Source: Shigella phage JK32. Taken from it: DNA of 64,000 nt. Below the pieces are notes generated by a model, which made no database searches, was not told where the DNA came from, and saw nothing but the letters and a program-made list of their open reading frames with translations. Where the stretch lies: sequence record MK962753.1; one strand, given 5' to 3'. Positions 17,737 through 59,809 of this stretch are shown one piece after another. Numbering within the stretch: position 1 is the first letter of the stretch; the number at the start of each line of letters is the position of its first letter. Position numbers and translations under genes: made by a program.

Positions 17737-18069
17737 TTATAGTCTCCTGAATGGATCATCACGTAAATCAATATCTTTTAAGAACTCATCCCATGAATGG
17801 CGGATATTGTTCTTAATTCTCCAGATAAGCGCAGGGATTGAACGCTCTCCCATCTGGAAGTAAGGATCATATGATCCGTATGCCCAATATGCTACTACAA
17901 TTCCACAATCAGCGCAATAGTATTCTATTTCACTTGCTGGCGACCAAAGTCCATCAATATGATCGGTGATCTTGCTTTCGATGTTATGGCTATGGCAATC
18001 AGGGCAACGGATGCAATGACCTTGTTTATCGTAATTTGACGTTAGCGAATACTTAAACAATCTCATCAT
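17737..18069 (-). CDS. small Cys/His-rich putative zinc-binding protein
   Basis: 110 aa with CxxC-x2-H and CxxC motifs; start overlaps stop of upstream gene. Confidence 0.6.
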   Translation of the reverse strand: MMRLFKYSLTSNYDKQGHCIRCPDCHSHNIESKITDHIDGLWSPASEIEYYCADCGIVVAYWAYGSYDPYFQMGERSIPALIWRIKNNIRHSWDEFLKDIDLRDDPFRRL

Positions 18070-18782
18070 AGATCCTTATTGGCTTCAAATACTGCCTTTG
18101 CGAATCCTCGCGGGGTAAGTGACCTGATAGTCTTTGTTCTGGTTCCTTTTCCGCCTAGCTTAGAATGCTGTTTGCTGTACCCTTTATTAATCGGCAACGG
18201 TTTCTTTTCTGGCATTATAAAGCCTTGTCCGGTCCATAAGCAAGTCTTTTTCGGGTACATATCACGGGAGGCAATATACTCAGGAAACGTAGGATGTATA
18301 TCATCTTCCGGCAAATAACCGCCATATTCCCACGGATGGAACATGTAATCAGGCTTACGCCACATACTAGAGATAACGCTTACAGGATTCTCTATCATGT
18401 AGGGAACTCCTAGCCATTCACCCAAATAAGCGGTTATTTTAGCTGCCCGTACATCATGAACTTGAATCAATGGTCCTTGCTCTCGTTTCTTTCGTTCAAA
18501 GTGTGCAGCGCCACTAACAGCTAAATTGGTGCACGGTGGGAATGCAAATATAATATCCGGTTTCCCCCATTCAAGGTCCATTGCTCTTTCCAGCCAGTTC
18601 AAATCAATCCATGTGTTTACATAGGTAATGTTTGGATGTTCAAATCGGGTATTATACTTTTTGTATGTGCCGTGGTCGCCATCGTCAGCATTAAAGCAGA
18701 TCACCTTATGACCTGCTTTAGCCCATTCTAGCCCCATTATCCCCGATCCGTCAAAGTTGCAGAATATTAATTTTTGTTTCAC
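18066..18782 (-). CDS. truncated C5-cytosine methyltransferase-like protein (SAM-dependent MTase core, no obvious target-recognition domain)
   Basis: 238 aa; motif I-like FDGSG, motif IV-like FPPCTNLAVSG, motif VI-like ENP in canonical order; GTG start overlapping upstream stop (GTGA). Confidence 0.55.
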   Translation of the reverse strand: MKQKLIFCNFDGSGIMGLEWAKAGHKVICFNADDGDHGTYKKYNTRFEHPNITYVNTWIDLNWLERAMDLEWGKPDIIFAFPPCTNLAVSGAAHFERKKREQGPLIQVHDVRAAKITAYLGEWLGVPYMIENPVSVISSMWRKPDYMFHPWEYGGYLPEDDIHPTFPEYIASRDMYPKKTCLWTGQGFIMPEKKPLPINKGYSKQHSKLGGKGTRTKTIRSLTPRGFAKAVFEANKDL

Positions 18783-19030
18783 GCTGCCCCCATTGGTTTG
18801 ATAGTAACAGAATCTAAAAGACCTTTGTTAGCCAGTTCGCGGCAAGTTTTCAGATCCGTAACTTCCCAGCCAGCCGCAATCAGGTTATCGATGAGGATGT
18901 TAGCAACTTCCTCGCTCATGAAAGAGCACTGTTTGCCGATGGTGTAGCGTACACGCTGTAATTTCAGTTTACGGAAGCCTTTAACGTTCAGGTCTTTAGC
19001 GATTTTCTTTGCGGTTTCGATGTTAGCCAT
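18779..19030 (-). CDS. hypothetical small protein (83 aa), first gene of operon
   Basis: SD GGAGAA; early promoter directly upstream. Confidence 0.6.
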   Translation of the reverse strand: MANIETAKKIAKDLNVKGFRKLKLQRVRYTIGKQCSFMSEEVANILIDNLIAAGWEVTDLKTCRELANKGLLDSVTIKPMGAA

Positions 19031-19070
19031 TGTTTGATTCTCCTAAGTAGTATCTCGTCTTGATGTGTGT

Positions 19071-19098
19071 AGTATAGGGGATCTCCCGATCCCCGTCA
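19071..19098 (-). promoter_or_regulatory. early promoter with palindromic spacer
   Basis: TTGACG, spacer GGGGATCGGGAGATCCCC-type palindrome, TATACT. Confidence 0.65.
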
Positions 19099-19114
19099 AC
19101 AACTTTTTTTAAAA

Positions 19115-19396
19115 TTATTCGTGATTAGTTTCGATGTTGTACATTTTGCACCAGTTCAGCCAATCGCCCAGATCTTGATAGTTGATGCTTTTATCTGCTG
19201 CCATCGTTTTTGTCTTGATACCCATATGTGCGTTATGAGTAAGCATTTTTACAGTGAACTCAATTTTATCGCCTTTAGCTTTAACATCAACCAGTTTGGT
19301 CCACTGGCTACCAGCGCCGCGAATGTTCATACCAACGATGTTTCCGATGTATGCTTCTTTGTTTTTCAGGATTTCGGTTGCTTTGATGAATTTCAT
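19115..19396 (-). CDS. hypothetical small protein (93 aa)
   Basis: ORF with SD GGAGAG; early promoter upstream. Confidence 0.6.
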   Translation of the reverse strand: MKFIKATEILKNKEAYIGNIVGMNIRGAGSQWTKLVDVKAKGDKIEFTVKMLTHNAHMGIKTKTMAADKSINYQDLGDWLNWCKMYNIETNHE

Positions 19397-19429
19397 TTTT
19401 GACTCTCCAGTTCGTTTCGGTATGGGTGT

Positions 19430-19458
19430 ATTATGCTATGTTCTTACTTTGGTGTCAA
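19430..19458 (-). promoter_or_regulatory. early promoter
   Basis: TTGACA, 17 nt, CATAAT; inverted repeat flanks -10; conserved ACACCCATCGAAACGA downstream. Confidence 0.65.
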
Positions 19459-19466
19459 CAACTTTT

Positions 19467-19736
19467 TTAGATATTTTCAGAAATAAATTTTAAAACTTGA
19501 CGTAAATGCTTCTCATCTTTGATAGTCGCCGGAAGTTCTTCTTTTACTTCCTGTGCAAGATAGATATTGCCGTTCCAAGTGAAAGATCCGTCTTCGTTTA
19601 CGCGATAGCTGAACATCCATTCGCAATCATTTTCGATTTCATATACACACAGAAGGGTGTAATCTTCAAAGCTATTGATTTCAAGGTCGAGGCCGTGACG
19701 TTTTGCAAAGTTGGTAGTGGTTTTAGTCAATGCCAT
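19467..19736 (-). CDS. hypothetical small protein (89 aa)
   Basis: ORF with SD AGGAGAA. Confidence 0.6.
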   Translation of the reverse strand: MALTKTTTNFAKRHGLDLEINSFEDYTLLCVYEIENDCEWMFSYRVNEDGSFTWNGNIYLAQEVKEELPATIKDEKHLRQVLKFISENI

Positions 19737-19776
19737 TGTTTGATTCTCCTAAGTAGTATCTCGTTTCGATGGGTGT

Positions 19777-19805
19777 ATTATGATATAGGCGTGATCTGGT
19801 GTCAA
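19777..19805 (-). promoter_or_regulatory. early promoter
   Basis: TTGACA, 17 nt, CATAAT. Confidence 0.65.
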
Positions 19806-19828
19806 CAACTTTTTTAAAATTTAGGCAA

Positions 19829-19852
19829 TAAAAAGCCGACACTAAGGTCGGC
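19829..19852 (-). terminator. rho-independent terminator
   Basis: GCCGACCTTAGTGTCGGC hairpin plus U-run on minus strand. Confidence 0.65.
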
Positions 19853-19857
19853 ACATT

Positions 19858-20112
19858 TTAAAAATTCTTGCTATATATGCAAGCCTCATAATCTAGAGGA
19901 TGACCGCCAATCCTACCAGGCTTAATATTCCAACCGCATCGATATTTGCTGACCATGCTAACCGTTTCGGTTCTTAGAGCATTTCTTTGCAAATCATACC
20001 CCCTAAATTCTTGTCTATAAGGACAGTCCGCTTTGCAAGTTGGCGGTTCTACGTCATTTAGCGGGTCAGAAGCAGTTGGCTTTATTATCAATTCTTTGTT
20101 TGCAATAATCAT
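19858..20112 (-). CDS. hypothetical Cys-rich ORF overlapping 3' end of upstream gene
   Basis: Open frame between 59-aa gene and terminator; start uncertain (ATG at 20112 or 20142); no clear SD. Confidence 0.35.
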   Translation of the reverse strand: MIIANKELIIKPTASDPLNDVEPPTCKADCPYRQEFRGYDLQRNALRTETVSMVSKYRCGWNIKPGRIGGHPLDYEACIYSKNF

Positions 20113-20245
20113 AAGCACATCCCATTGAAGGCAATTTAACATCTTCGCAATAAGTGTTGAATCCGTCAAATACAATCACTTCGTATTTGACTCCATCGGC
20201 GATAGCTTTTACTTTATACCATCCATGCTTGTATAAAATCTTCAT
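20066..20245 (-). CDS. hypothetical small Cys-rich protein (59 aa)
   Basis: ATG at 20245 with SD GAGGGAAAT; track start is TTG. Confidence 0.5.
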   Translation of the reverse strand: MKILYKHGWYKVKAIADGVKYEVIVFDGFNTYCEDVKLPSMGCAYDYCKQRIDNKANCF

Positions 20246-20276
20246 CTTTATTTCCCTCAATCTCGTTTCGATGGGT

Positions 20277-20305
20277 GTATTATGCTATACACAGGATCTA
20301 GTGTC
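20277..20305 (-). promoter_or_regulatory. early promoter
   Basis: TTGACA, 17 nt, CATAAT. Confidence 0.65.
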
Positions 20306-20329
20306 AACAACTTTTTAAAATTTTATGCA

Positions 20330-20353
20330 ATAAAAAAGCCGACACTAAGGTCG
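20330..20353 (-). terminator. rho-independent terminator
   Basis: Same hairpin as 19829..19852 followed by U6 on minus. Confidence 0.65.
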
Positions 20354-20363
20354 GCTAATAAAA

Positions 20364-20669
20364 TCATTTAGACAAATAATCATTCTGTGCAATCCGGTCG
20401 GCATGTTCCGGCGTTACGTCAATTGCAATCACTTTAACGCGCGCTTTCTTGACTGAATTTTCTCGTAGCCAGTGCGTGTGACCGTGCACATTTTTATATT
20501 TTGATGCGGTTTCGAAGGTACGGATCGGACCTGGGTAATCAGCGTAAAGGATCTCTAGGTCATCGGTGATGTAAAAATATACGTTGTAATTACTGTTCTC
20601 TAGCTTAAGCAGAGACTTTCGGAACATTGGGAGATTTTCGCGGGTAAATTCAAAGATATTATCTTTCAT
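20364..20669 (-). CDS. HxHW-family small protein, paralog A
   Basis: 101 aa; motifs YFYITDDL ... HGHTHW ... VIAIDV..ADR shared with five neighbouring ORFs. Confidence 0.65.
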   Translation of the reverse strand: MKDNIFEFTRENLPMFRKSLLKLENSNYNVYFYITDDLEILYADYPGPIRTFETASKYKNVHGHTHWLRENSVKKARVKVIAIDVTPEHADRIAQNDYLSK

Positions 20670-20692
20670 AGTATTATCCTCAATAGTTGGAT

Positions 20693-20713
20693 GAAAAGGG
20701 GGCTTAACGCCCC
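20693..20713 (-). terminator. hairpin terminator (likely partial)
   Basis: GGGGGCGTTAAGCCCCC followed by TTTTC on minus. Confidence 0.45.
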
Positions 20714-20719
20714 CATATA

Positions 20720-21007
20720 TTAAAACAGTCCTTCCTGTACACCGTAGTAGAGTTCGTCGCTGATAATTTCATTAATGCGACGGTGTGCATATTCCTGATT
20801 TGCGAAGTTGTCAGCAAGTTCTACTTTAGTTTCGCCGTCATGAGTCCATTTAGTGATAACTTTACCGTCTGCAAATTTGAAGTTGAACTCTTTAGCTACT
20901 GCATCGCGTACCAGACGTGCAAACTTATTGTTGCGGATTGCATTATCGGTTTCGTGTGCAGCGTGAGCAAATTTGTTAACTTTCAGCGTGATAGTGATGT
21001 ATGCCAT
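20720..21007 (-). CDS. hypothetical small protein (95 aa)
   Basis: SD GGAGAA; early promoter upstream. Confidence 0.6.
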   Translation of the reverse strand: MAYITITLKVNKFAHAAHETDNAIRNNKFARLVRDAVAKEFNFKFADGKVITKWTHDGETKVELADNFANQEYAHRRINEIISDELYYGVQEGLF

Positions 21008-21053
21008 AATTTGATTCTCCTAGTTAGAAAGTGTATCTCGTTTCGATGGGTGT

Positions 21054-21082
21054 ATTATGCAATACACCCGATCTTATGTCAA
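21054..21082 (-). promoter_or_regulatory. early promoter
   Basis: TTGACA, 17 nt, CATAAT; upstream gene stop abuts the -35. Confidence 0.65.
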
Positions 21083-21088
21083 CACTTT

Positions 21089-21367
21089 TTATAAAATAAT
21101 TTTTTGATATTTTTCTATGATGTTCGTGTAATCCACATCAACCGCTATCACCGTTGCTTCGAATCCACCGTTTAGCCAATGGCTATGGTCATGATCGTGA
21201 AAGAAACCAAGACCAGTACGAAGACCTTCTTTATATTCGGCGCGTACATTTAGATCATCATCGATAAACAGATAAAACCATGAATTTTTACTAGGATTGA
21301 TGATACAACCTTTCAGATTAGGGAGAATATCACGACTAAGAATAAACTTATCACCTACTTTGAACAT
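21089..21367 (-). CDS. HxHW-family small protein, paralog B
   Basis: ATG at 21367 with SD GTGAGGA; motifs WFYLFIDDDL ... HDHSHW ... VIAVDV. Confidence 0.65.
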   Translation of the reverse strand: MFKVGDKFILSRDILPNLKGCIINPSKNSWFYLFIDDDLNVRAEYKEGLRTGLGFFHDHDHSHWLNGGFEATVIAVDVDYTNIIEKYQKIIL

Positions 21368-21371
21368 AATA

Positions 21372-21692
21372 TTAGTCCTCACTTATAAGGTCAAACCAAT
21401 TGTTTTTCGCATAATGCTTAATGCGTGCTTGATCTGCTTCCGCTGGTGATAGATTCCATGCAACCACTACAACTTCTGACGCATCGTCATCCGTTTCTGA
21501 TACCCAATGATTATGATTCATACAATTGTTTGCTATCGCGTGAGCAAATGATTTCATCACTGGAGACGTATAATCATAGTAACGGATTTTCAGATTTTCA
21601 TCAACGTACAAATAGATCGTATAAGGTTTATATTCAGTAACCAGTAACAGACAGTTACGCAATTCTGGGAAAATATTTTTAGTTAATTTCAT
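21372..21692 (-). CDS. HxHW-family small protein, paralog C
   Basis: 106 aa; YLYVDENL ... HNHW ... VVVAWNL..AEADQ; SD GGAGAA. Confidence 0.65.
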   Translation of the reverse strand: MKLTKNIFPELRNCLLLVTEYKPYTIYLYVDENLKIRYYDYTSPVMKSFAHAIANNCMNHNHWVSETDDDASEVVVVAWNLSPAEADQARIKHYAKNNWFDLISED

Positions 21693-21894
21693 ATTCTAGT
21701 TCTCCGTAATACACGGTAATCCATTTTTCTTCATACTTTGTATCTTTCCAACACACAATCCCGTTTACTGTGCAATCTTTGGAATTGACGAATGATTCAT
21801 ATTGTTCTGCATCTTCCATCATTGCATGAGCGGTCTTTTCATCGAATATATCGCAGATCGCTTTATATGCTCGATAATCTTTAAATTTGCTCAT
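21679..21894 (-). CDS. hypothetical small protein (71 aa), tandem duplicate 1 (MSKFKDY family)
   Basis: N-terminus MSKFKDYRAY, paralogous to adjacent 21897..22106; ATG at 21894. Confidence 0.55.
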   Translation of the reverse strand: MSKFKDYRAYKAICDIFDEKTAHAMMEDAEQYESFVNSKDCTVNGIVCWKDTKYEEKWITVYYGELEYEIN

Positions 21895-21896
21895 AA

Positions 21897-22106
21897 TTAA
21901 GACCACTCAAGAGTTTTTGAAAACACATCTATCCATTGTTGAGTATATGCGGTTTCTTTCCATGATACAATACCAGTCGAATAATGGTTTTTGTTTCCAG
22001 AAAAGGACGGGCATTTTGAGGCATCTTCCATCATCTTTTCGGCGAACTCTGGTTCGTATACTCGCAAGATCTGTTGATATGCTTTATAATCTTTAAATTT
22101 GCTCAT
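21897..22106 (-). CDS. hypothetical small protein (69 aa), tandem duplicate 2 (MSKFKDY family)
   Basis: N-terminus MSKFKDYKAY; SD AAGGTAG. Confidence 0.55.
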   Translation of the reverse strand: MSKFKDYKAYQQILRVYEPEFAEKMMEDASKCPSFSGNKNHYSTGIVSWKETAYTQQWIDVFSKTLEWS

Positions 22107-40774: not shown

Positions 40775-40802
40775 TTTTATCCTCCGTTGTTTCGATGAGT
40801 GC

Positions 40803-40830
40803 ATTATACATTATCTCGGATCGGTGTCAA
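40803..40830 (-). promoter_or_regulatory. early promoter
   Basis: TTGACA, 16 nt, TATAAT. Confidence 0.6.
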
Positions 40831-40855
40831 TACCTTTTCATAAAATTTTAGGCAA

Positions 40856-40881
40856 TAAAAAGCCTTCCCGAAGGAAGGCTT
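40856..40881 (-). terminator. rho-independent terminator after gene 32
   Basis: AAGCCTTCCTTCGGGAAGGCTT hairpin then T-run on minus. Confidence 0.65.
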
Positions 40882-59699: not shown

Positions 59700-59730
59700 T
59701 TTTGAATCTCCTTTTTGTTTCACTGTGTGT

Positions 59731-59759
59731 ATTATGCAATGCTGGATTATGGAAGTCAA
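59731..59759 (-). promoter_or_regulatory. early promoter
   Basis: TTGACT, 17 nt, CATAAT. Confidence 0.6.
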
Positions 59760-59772
59760 ACAACTTTTCAAA

Positions 59773-59799
59773 TAAAAAAGCCGACCACAAGGATCGGCT
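59773..59799 (-). terminator. rho-independent terminator
   Basis: AGCCGATCCTTGTGGTCGGCT hairpin then U6 on minus. Confidence 0.65.
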
Positions 59800-59809
59800 T
59801 AATAGTCAG

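What the first reader, a model, noticed from the sequence alone, without database searches (positions are those of the whole stretch)
19758..20353. Near-identical ~95-bp leader/promoter/terminator module duplicated 500 bp apart
Segments 19758..19852 and 20258..20353 are about 85% identical by eye and each contains the conserved leader, a TTGACA-N17-CATAAT promoter and the same terminator hairpin GCCGACACTAAGGTCGGC. Such direct repeats flanking a ~400-bp gene cassette are ideal substrates for homologous recombination and suggest recent modular insertion or duplication.
Basis: seen in the sequence. Interest (0 to 1): 0.45.

Follow-up and report, generated by a model that had tools for sequence, protein, structure and literature searches.

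The report
Known phage promoter-terminator recombination cassettes (PeSLs)
The two repeats are a real pair of terminator-promoter-leader modules (PeSLs) already described in RB49-type T4-like coliphages. They bracket a small two-gene cassette that most related phages lack through recombination inside the repeat, so the finding is correct but already known.

Summary

Read on the minus strand, each copy has:
- an identical hairpin, GCCGACCTTAGTGTCGGC, followed by a U-run;
- an AT-rich tract;
- TTGACA-N17-CATAAT;
- the leader ACACCCATCGAAACGAGAT.

The window is a Krischvirus (RB49-like T4-type coliphage). The two copies are the orthologues of the RB49 intergenic regions 194/195 and 196/197. They belong to a family of about 20 such modules in the window.

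These modules are the "promoter-early stem-loops" (PeSLs) of Arbiol et al. 2010. That paper already lists ORFs 195, 196 and 196.1 as RB49-specific relative to phi1, and it showed mini-circle formation using the 194/195 PeSL.

Across 58 related records:
- 16 carry the 407-bp cassette;
- 40 carry one chimeric PeSL instead, 502 bp shorter;
- sequence blocks inside the repeat are reassorted between the two positions.

"Recent duplication" is not supported. Nothing here is new in kind.

One side observation may deserve follow-up. The +1 leader ATCGAAACGAG recurs at sigma-70-type promoters of unrelated phage families.

The parts
20260..20355 (-). Upstream PeSL (orthologue of the RB49 196/197 intergenic module). 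It terminates p197 transcription and re-initiates transcription for p196/p195.
   Evidence: orthology.
20338..20355 (-). Terminator hairpin GCCGACCUUAGUGUCGGC of the upstream PeSL, followed by a U6 run at 20332-20337.
   Evidence: terminator scan; -11.2 kcal/mol, z = -3.4.
20279..20331 (-). Promoter of the upstream PeSL. AT-rich/UP-like tract 20308-20331, -35 TTGACA 20302-20307, 17-nt spacer, -10 CATAAT 20279-20284.
   Evidence: 11/12 match.
20260..20278 (-). Discriminator plus conserved leader ACACCC-ATCGAAACGAGAT of the upstream PeSL. The predicted +1 is the A of ATCG (inferred, not mapped).
19853..20259 (-). Variable cassette. It holds the p196 SD and ATG, p196 (20066-20245, 59 aa) and p195 (19858-20112, 84 aa, overlapping p196 by 47 nt in another frame). 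Both are ORFans.
   Evidence: Present in 16 of 58 related records at 97-100% identity.
19758..19852 (-). Downstream PeSL (orthologue of the RB49 194/195 intergenic module). It terminates cassette transcription and re-initiates transcription for p194.
   Evidence: The RB49 orthologue was a crossover partner in a sequenced mini-circle.
19835..19852 (-). Terminator hairpin of the downstream PeSL, identical in sequence to the upstream one, followed by a U5 run at 19830-19834.
   Evidence: (-10.4 kcal/mol, z = -3.0).
19777..19829 (-). Promoter of the downstream PeSL. AT-rich tract 19806-19829, -35 TTGACA 19800-19805, 17-nt spacer, -10 CATAAT 19777-19782.
19758..19776 (-). Discriminator plus conserved leader ACACCC-ATCGAAACGAGAT of the downstream PeSL.
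19467..19736 (-). p194 (89 aa, phrog_6147, function unknown), the gene driven by the downstream PeSL.
20364..20669 (-). p197 (101 aa, phrog_9345, function unknown), the gene terminated by the upstream PeSL hairpin. It is unusually variable between phages (85-94% identity).
19045..19125 (-). Neighbouring PeSL between p193 and p190, with its stem-loop between -35 and -10. It is a three-way chimera of RB49 PeSLs 193/192, 192/191 and 191/190.
19405..19487 (-). Neighbouring PeSL-type promoter module between p194 and p193.
21028..21108 (-). Neighbouring PeSL between p199 and p198, with its stem-loop overlapping the -10 and the same leader.

Best explanation
The two segments are PeSLs (promoter-early stem-loops): composite intergenic cassettes of RB49-type T4-like coliphages.

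How each copy works on the minus strand (inferred from sequence, not measured here):
1. A 6-7-bp GC-rich hairpin plus U-run terminates transcription of the gene upstream.
2. An AT-rich tract and a near-consensus sigma-70 promoter (TTGACA-N17-CATAAT) restart early transcription.
3. The transcript starts in the conserved leader AUCGAAACGAGAU. A gene-specific Shine-Dalgarno sequence follows.

How the pair acts as a recombination substrate:
- The two copies are about 96 nt long, about 90% identical, in direct orientation and 502 bp apart.
- That makes them targets for the phage's general homologous recombination.
- A crossover anywhere inside them removes the p196/p195 cassette and leaves a single chimeric PeSL. 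The published model predicts the excised piece is a 502-bp mini-circle. The reverse exchange inserts the cassette.
- Exchanges between the copies also reassort their internal blocks.

Shown here: the anatomy, orthology to the RB49 modules, presence/absence polymorphism with breakpoints inside the repeat, and block reassortment. Inferred: promoter and terminator activity of these two copies, the start site, the recombination machinery, and mini-circle formation for this cassette.
For: Anatomy.

Identity of the locus: the window matches 58 Krischvirus records. The gene order maps onto RB49 ORFs 189-200, so the two copies are the 194/195 and 196/197 intergenic modules.

Family: nhmmer finds 20 modules in 64 kb, all on the minus strand. 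The two copies are reciprocal best partners at 80% over 110 nt; the next best pairing is 72%.

Polymorphism:
- The cassette is present in 16 records at 97-100% identity, once per record.
- 40 records cover only 56-66% of p194..p197, and 2 lack the region.
- In Makalu_003 one 97-nt module aligns to both window copies. It is chimeric: the hairpin side has the upstream context and the leader/SD side has the downstream context.
- All 8 cassette-free genomes examined show that same context pattern.

Crossover positions differ between isolates:
- G37-3's single copy equals Sf20's downstream copy except for its 5' context. This places the exchange in the hairpin block.
- The single copies of Makalu, Whisky and PHB13 equal the upstream copies of MIZ4 and GoldenSnicker except for their 3' context. 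This places the exchange in the -10/leader block.
- Spacer variant CTGTGTATAG sits in the upstream copy in the window and Brandy, but in the downstream copy in MIZ4 and MIZ6.

Cassette presence does not follow flank relatedness. RB49 and TB34 (cassette present) and PHB13 (absent) share one p197 allele type. MIZ4/6 (present) are closest to GEC-3S and kaaroe (absent).

Literature (PMC2839356):
- It defines PeSLs and shows promoter and terminator activity for other PeSLs.
- It proposes the excision/insertion model.
- It sequenced mini-circles whose junction used the RB49 194/195 PeSL.
- It lists ORFs 192, 195, 196 and 196.1 as an RB49-specific cluster.
Against: - No experiment exists on this phage or on this particular cassette. 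Mini-circles were shown for ORF192 and ORF210, not for ORF195/196.
- Promoter, terminator and start site of these two copies are predicted only.
- The direction of the event (gain or loss) is not resolved.
- PeSLs are less conserved between genomes (88-92%) than the neighbouring genes (97-99%). This fits exchange among paralogous copies, but it also fits weaker constraint on non-coding spacers.
- The 58 records include duplicate deposits of the same phage (RB49 three times; phi1, GEC-3S, JSE, ECD7 and KFS-EC twice each). The 16/40 split therefore overcounts independent isolates.
Confidence: 0.9

Rival explanations
1. The similarity is only functional convergence. Two strong early promoters and two terminators look alike because they match the same consensus, and the repeats play no part in recombination.
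For: All roughly 20 modules share TTGAC and a -10 because they are promoters. The leader also recurs at promoters of unrelated phages, so some shared blocks are selected for function.
Against: - Identity extends through unconstrained positions: the hairpin loop, the post-terminator ATTGC block and the AT-tract. It reaches 89.6% over 96 nt, against 72% or less for any other module pair.
- This exact hairpin occurs only at these two sites.
- Cassette-free relatives have breakpoints inside the module and chimeric single copies.
Confidence: 0.04
2. A recent tandem duplication of a roughly 500-bp segment (module plus gene) created the pair, and the gene copy then diverged or was replaced.
For: The copies are in direct orientation, 502 bp apart, and are each other's closest relatives.
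Against: - Sequence outside the 96-nt module shows no similarity (about 47% with gaps).
- p195 and p196 are unrelated to p194 and p197 (different PHROGs or none).
- The two-gene cassette exists as a unit in an unrelated siphovirus. This points to acquisition of foreign genes, not local duplication.
- No record carries two cassette copies.
Confidence: 0.03
3. The cassette moves by site-specific recombination at the hairpins, in an integron-like or dedicated-recombinase manner, rather than by general homologous recombination.
For: Both copies carry an identical hairpin. Arbiol et al. speculated that a stem-loop-binding protein might be involved.
Against: - Natural alleles imply crossovers at different places in the module: the hairpin block in one lineage and the -10/leader block in others.
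- Published mini-circle junctions lay between the -10 and the ATG.
- Other PeSLs carry different hairpins at different positions.
- The neighbouring ORFs match no recombinase family, and the authors found none in the genome.
Confidence: 0.03

Closest known systems
PeSLs (promoter-early stem-loops) of coliphages RB49 and phi1 (Arbiol, Comeau, Kutateladze, Adamia & Krisch 2010, PMC2839356; extended to other T4-likes in Comeau et al. 2014, PMC4122927)
   Same: The composition is the same: AT-rich tract, sigma-70-type promoter, stem-loop, SD. So are the hyperplastic-region location upstream of ORFans, the multi-copy family and the association with ORFan indels. The two copies are the orthologues of the RB49 194/195 and 196/197 modules. 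The ORF195/196 cassette is one of the published RB49-versus-phi1 differences.
   Different: Nothing in kind. This work adds a survey of 58 records, a map of where the exchanges fell in natural alleles, and evidence that blocks are reassorted between the two flanking copies. In this pair the stem-loop lies upstream of the AT-rich tract, one of the five published subclasses. It is a canonical hairpin plus U-run, not the commoner GGGG...CCCC stem.
Integron gene cassettes
   Same: Small accessory genes are inserted or excised as circles at repeated recombination sites. Arbiol et al. drew this comparison themselves.
   Different: There is no integrase and no attC/attI sites. Each cassette brings its own promoter and terminator. 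Junction positions vary, which indicates homology-driven rather than site-specific exchange.
Morons (Hendrix et al. 2000) and Botstein/Campbell linker-mediated modular exchange
   Same: Like a moron, this is a self-contained transcription unit (promoter, gene, terminator) added to a phage genome. Like Botstein's linkers, conserved flanking sequences guide the exchange. The hz69 homologue of the cassette is a textbook moron: opposite strand, inside the structural module, with its own terminator.
   Different: In the moron model the regulatory sequences are not the vehicles of mobility. Here the repeated regulatory module is itself the recombination substrate.
Major early E. coli promoters of phage T7 (A1, A3)
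   Same: These are strong sigma-70 promoters whose transcripts start AUCGAGAGGGA (A1) and AUGAAACGACAG (A3). Compare AUCGAAACGAGAU predicted here.
   Different: They are not repeated recombination modules. This is a resemblance only. It suggests the conserved leader acts as an initial transcribed sequence, which was not tested.

Membership tests
PeSL (Arbiol et al. 2010) | Sigma-70-type early promoter with -35 and -10 boxes | tested here: met
   TTGACA-17-CATAAT, 11/12 match, in both copies on the minus strand.
PeSL (Arbiol et al. 2010) | [quoted passage not shown] | tested here: met
   ATTGCCTAAATTTTAAAAAAGTTG and ATTGCATAAAATTTTAAAAAGTTG lie directly upstream of TTGACA.
PeSL (Arbiol et al. 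2010) | Stable stem-loop in one of five positions relative to the promoter, able to act as a terminator or attenuator | tested here: met
   A hairpin of 6-7 bp (5 GC pairs) plus a U5-6 run lies upstream of the AT-rich tract, at -10.4 and -11.2 kcal/mol. Its activity is predicted, not measured.
PeSL (Arbiol et al. 2010) | Intergenic position in a hyperplastic region, followed by the SD and start codon of an ORFan | tested here: met
   The copies lie between p197/p196 and between p195/p194 in the RB49 ORF189-205 ORFan cluster. No ORF reaches a Pfam threshold, and the PHROG matches are all of unknown function.
PeSL (Arbiol et al. 2010) | Repeated motif family with conservation over about 100 bp | tested here: met
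   20 nhmmer hits in 64 kb, all on the minus strand; 18 have E<0.01. All sequences are listed.
PeSL (Arbiol et al. 2010) | Association with insertion, deletion or replacement of flanked ORFans between close relatives | tested here: met
   16 records carry the cassette, 40 have a single chimeric module, and the breakpoints lie inside the module. The paper lists ORFs 195/196/196.1 as RB49-specific.
PeSL (Arbiol et al. 2010) | [quoted passage not shown] | not testable with these tools
   This needs inverse PCR or long reads from infected cells or virions. It was published for RB49 ORF192 circles, one of which used the 194/195 PeSL, but not for the ORF195/196 cassette.
PeSL (Arbiol et al. 2010) | Measured promoter and terminator activity | not testable with these tools
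   Reporter assays exist for PeSLs 193/192 and 206/205 and for the stem-loop of 211/210. None exists for these two copies.
Intrinsic (Rho-independent) terminator | GC-rich stem, short loop and an immediately following U-tract, placed downstream of a stop codon | tested here: met
   The hairpins begin 8 nt after the p197 stop codon and 5 nt after the p195 stop codon. Relatives annotate the same site as a terminator.
Integron cassette / attC site | Tyrosine-recombinase integrase, attC-type imperfect palindromes and promoterless cassettes | tested here: not met
   Each cassette has its own promoter. No recombinase family was found among the 9 neighbouring ORFs. Junction positions are variable. 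Only the local region was scanned for an integrase.
Known structured RNA (Rfam) | Match to a curated covariance model at gathering score | tested here: not met
   The only hit is RyhB at 22 bits against a gathering score of 55 (E = 0.81), lying over the hairpin. This is chance.

The most novel reading that the evidence does not exclude
The "conserved leader" may be more than a local feature of this phage's PeSLs.

The 11-mer ATCGAAACGAG sits at the predicted +1 of sigma-70-type promoters in unrelated phage lineages. These are Krischvirus, 46-kb Salmonella/E. coli siphoviruses, siphovirus hz69, Cronobacter CR9-like 150-kb myoviruses, Rheinheimera Barba phages and a 233-kb phage contig. It also resembles the transcript starts of T7 A1 and A3.

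It could be a portable, selected initial-transcribed or 5'-end element. Candidate roles are promoter escape, mRNA 5'-end protection, or recruitment of a host or phage factor. I did not find it described in the searchable literature. In PeSLs it would also serve as one of the exact-homology blocks where crossovers occur.
Probability: 0.3. Interest if true: 0.45.

Novelty: already known. Interest (0 to 1): 0.15.

Why it matters
PeSLs are one of the few documented mechanisms for how large lytic phages gain and lose small accessory genes without damaging neighbouring transcription units. This window shows the mechanism clearly in a much larger set of genomes than the two phages of the original paper. 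It does not change the picture.

In practice, such repeat pairs predict which ORFan cassettes are unstable in therapeutic Krischvirus stocks. They also mark natural, transcriptionally insulated insertion sites for engineering.

Tried and rejected
- **Alternative cassette at the same site.** Six records (FL37, ELT3, ELT4, kaaroe, PHB13, phiS) showed a 1.13-kb span in three pieces. This suggested a replacement cassette. Two of them (kaaroe and PHB13) were fetched. Both have the ordinary single-PeSL arrangement, and the third piece was the next PeSL downstream. Rejected.
- **Function of the cassette genes.** No Pfam family reaches its threshold. The only PHROG match, for p196, is of unknown function, and p195 matches none. 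No function could be assigned.
- **Cassette in another genomic context within Krischvirus.** None was found: one place per record, always between p194 and p197.
- **Known RNA family over the leader or hairpin.** None was found.
- **Direction of the event (gain or loss).** Cassette identity (98.8-100%) is only slightly higher than that of the left flank (97-99%), so this is not decisive.
- **Raw count of the leader motif in viral contigs.** It is only 1.5-2.5 times the permuted controls (69 against 27 and 46). The signal appears only when promoter context is required.
- **Supplementary PeSL list of the 2010 paper.** It is not held in the library.

Full report
**1. The observation**

Reading 19000-21300 and running the repeat finder confirm a direct repeat.
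- Window 19758-19834 and 20260-20336 are 88% identical without gaps.
- They are followed by an exact 23-mer, AAAAAGCCGACACTAAGGTCGGC, at 19830-19852 and 20333-20355.

A global alignment gives these figures.
- 89.6% (86/96) in the correct register, 19758-19852 against 20260-20355.
- Only 21/44 and 22/47 matches in the 40 nt outside either end, so the repeat is a sharply bounded module of about 96 nt.

The repeat is well above chance.
- The hairpin 18-mer occurs exactly twice in 64 kb, against 0.00 expected.
- The leader/-10 20-mer has three exact and three near copies, against 0.01 expected.

**2. Anatomy**

All genes in this region lie on the minus strand. Read on that strand, each copy has the following parts in order.
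- The hairpin GCCGACCUUAGUGUCGGC, at -10.4 and -11.2 kcal/mol (z = -3.0 and -3.4).
- A U5 or U6 run.
- An AT-rich tract.
- The -35 box TTGACA.
- A 17-nt spacer.
- The -10 box CATAAT.
- ACACCC.
- ATCGAAACGAGAT.

After that the two copies diverge into gene-specific Shine-Dalgarno sequences. These are ACTACTTAGGAGAATCAAACAATG for p194 and TGAGGGAAATAAAGATG for p196.

The module is therefore a terminator for the upstream gene fused to a strong sigma-70-type promoter and a common leader for the downstream gene. The 407 bp between the copies (19853-20259) hold two overlapping small ORFs.
- p196 is 59 aa, at 20066-20245.
- p195 is 84 aa, at 19858-20112.
- Neither reaches a Pfam threshold. p196 falls in a PHROG of unknown function, and p195 matches none.

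No Rfam family matches the region.

**3. What the window is**

Megablast places the region in 58 Krischvirus records, the RB49-like T4-type coliphages. The best match is phage Brandy at 97.3%.

Against the RB49 annotation the gene order is as follows.
- p189, a methyltransferase, at 18066-18782.
- p190, p193 and p194.
- The downstream repeat copy.
- p195 and p196.
- The upstream repeat copy.
- p197, p198, p199 and p200.

The two copies are the orthologues of the RB49 194/195 and 196/197 intergenic regions.

**4. It is a family, not just a pair**

A profile built from the five local copies finds 20 modules in the 64 kb, all on the minus strand. Their sequences show the published subclasses.
- Stem-loops between -35 and -10 (GGGGATC...GATCCCC).
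- Stem-loops overlapping the -10 (GGGAGTAGTAAGATACTCCC).
- Stem-loops upstream of the AT-tract, as in the pair studied here.

The two copies are reciprocal best partners, at 80% over 110 nt including non-homologous ends. The next best pairing is 72%.

**5. Published identity**

These modules are the PeSLs (promoter-early stem-loops) of Arbiol et al. 2010 (PMC2839356). That paper does the following.
- It defines PeSLs by the features seen here. It reports 51 in RB49 and 52 in phi1.
- It shows promoter and terminator activity for some of them.
- It proposes excision and insertion of flanked ORFans by recombination between PeSLs.
- It sequenced mini-circles from this very region. One junction joined the 190/191 and 194/195 PeSLs, and the latter is the orthologue of the downstream copy here.
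- It lists ORFs 192, 195, 196 and 196.1 as a cluster unique to RB49 relative to phi1.

The 2014 follow-up (PMC4122927) extends PeSLs to other T4-likes.

**6. Comparative test of the recombination reading**

Distribution of the cassette:
- The cassette alone is found in 16 records at 97-100% identity, once per record and always in the same context.
- With p194..p197 as the query, 16 records cover it fully, 40 cover 56-66%, and 2 lack the region.
- Some phages are deposited more than once, so these are records, not independent isolates.

Structure of the cassette-free alleles:
- In Makalu_003 a single 97-nt module aligns to both window copies.
- A three-way alignment shows it is chimeric. The 5' context and hairpin side match the upstream copy, and the leader/SD side matches the downstream copy.

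A block-by-block table of 11 cassette-bearing and 8 cassette-free genomes shows three things.
- (i) Every single copy has the 5' context of the upstream copy and the 3' context of the downstream copy.
- (ii) The implied crossover differs between lineages. G37-3's single copy equals Sf20's downstream copy except for its 5' context, which places the exchange in the hairpin block. The single copies of Makalu, Whisky and PHB13 equal the upstream copies of MIZ4 and GoldenSnicker except for their 3' context, which places the exchange in the -10/leader block.
- (iii) Internal variants are reassorted between positions. One example is the spacer CTGTGTATAG, which is upstream in the window and Brandy, downstream in MIZ4 and MIZ6, and in the single copy of JSE.

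Relation to the flanking sequence:
- Cassette presence does not follow flank relatedness.
- PeSLs are less conserved between genomes (88-92%) than the neighbouring genes (97-99%) or the cassette (99-100%).

Together these results favour general homologous recombination across the whole module. They argue against a fixed site-specific junction, a tandem duplication or mere promoter convergence.

**7. Further PeSL-associated differences in the window**

- The window lacks RB49 p191 and p192.
- Its p193/p190 module is a three-way chimera of RB49 PeSLs 193/192, 192/191 and 191/190.
- p189.1 is deleted gene-precisely, at a 13/15-nt similarity between the p189.1 and p189 start regions.

**8. Origin of the cassette**

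tblastn finds the p196-p195 pair (57% and 64% aa identity) adjacent and overlapping in an unrelated phage, the 43-kb siphovirus hz69. There it lies on the opposite strand inside the structural module, with its own terminator. This is a classic moron arrangement.

A p195 homologue (59%) in "Desulfovibrio phage 7757" lies between two direct repeats of a different promoter module, 548 bp apart. This is a PeSL-like arrangement in another lineage.

**9. The leader**

Distribution of the motif:
- ATCGAAACGAG occurs three times in the window (0.03 expected). It occurs twice in hz69 (0.02 expected), each time 6-7 nt after a -10-like hexamer.
- Nearly all 20 window modules carry a CATCGAAAC-like block at that position.

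A scan of viral contigs for TTGACA-N28-32-ATCGAAACGAG gave 69 matches. Two permuted controls gave 27 and 46. When promoter context is required, the contrast becomes strong.
- A -10 hexamer is in place in 51/69 matches, against 1/27 and 0/46 in the controls.
- An SD and start codon lie within 40 nt in 51/69 matches, against 1/27 and 0/46 in the controls.

The lineages include 46-kb Salmonella/E. coli siphoviruses, Cronobacter CR9-like myoviruses and Rheinheimera Barba phages.

T7 A1 and A3 transcripts begin ATCGAGAGGGA and ATGAAACGACAG. The motif string is absent from phage papers in the searchable library.

I infer that the leader is a selected initial-transcribed or 5'-end element. This was not tested.

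**10. Verdict**

- The recombination interpretation is supported.
- The element is a textbook PeSL pair at a locus already analysed in the literature.
- Novelty: already known. Interest is low.
- The cross-family leader motif is the only item that may deserve separate follow-up.

Noticed in passing
window 19758-19776, 20260-20278, 21035-21053 (minus strand); also L014 (hz69) 30692 and 42512; L015-L083: The 11-mer ATCGAAACGAG sits at the predicted +1 of sigma-70-type promoters in several unrelated phage lineages. In a viral-contig scan, 51 of 69 matches have a -10 hexamer and an SD plus start codon in place, against 1/27 and 0/46 for permuted controls. It resembles the T7 A1 and A3 transcript starts. 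Its function is unknown.
   Followed up: partly
L012 1871-2252 (= ON556632.1 30713-31094): Homologues of p196 and p195 (57% and 64% aa identity) occur as the same overlapping pair in the unrelated 43-kb siphovirus hz69. They lie on the opposite strand inside the structural genes and have their own terminator. This is a moron-like copy of the cassette.
   Followed up: partly
L013 about 1200-1260 and 1748-1808: In "Desulfovibrio phage 7757" (142.6 kb) a p195 homologue plus one other ORF lie between two direct repeats of a different promoter module (AAAAAGTAGTTGACA...ATGGCTATTGTCTACTCA), 548 bp apart. This is a PeSL-like layout outside the T4-likes. The record is marked UNVERIFIED.
   Followed up: no
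window 19011-19135: The window lacks RB49 ORFs 191 and 192. The remaining module between p193 and p190 is a three-way chimera of RB49 PeSLs 193/192, 192/191 and 191/190.
   Followed up: yes
window 18766-18782: ORF189.1 (present in RB49, Brandy and others) is deleted gene-precisely. The junction lies in a 13/15-nt similarity (GTGAAA.AAAATTAAT) between the start regions of p189.1 and the p189 methyltransferase, whose start codon here is GTG.
   Followed up: partly
window 20364-20669: p197 is far more variable between Krischvirus genomes (85-94% nucleotide identity, with at least two allele groups) than its neighbours p193, p194 and p198 (96-99%).
   Followed up: partly
window 20364-20669, 21089-21382, 21372-21692; 21679-22106: There are tandem paralogous ORFans. 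p197, p199 and p200 all hit phrog_9345 and share an H-x-H-W...V-I-A-hD motif. The two ORFs at 21679-21906 and 21897-22106 share a 90-nt repeat at 73% identity (MSKFKDY...).
   Followed up: no
window 19858-20245: p196 and p195 overlap by 47 nt in different frames. In UPWr_E1 and KMB43 the p195 match is split into two pieces, and in GoldenSnicker the annotated ORF is shortened. The gene may be decaying in some lineages.
   Followed up: no
window 40789-40880 and 59706-59800: Two distant PeSLs share sub-blocks with the pair studied. The module at about 40858 has a different hairpin but the same TTTTTATTGCCTAAAATTTTA block. The module at about 59772 has a hairpin, AGCCGATCCTTGTGGTCGGC, that is a variant of the one studied.
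   Followed up: no
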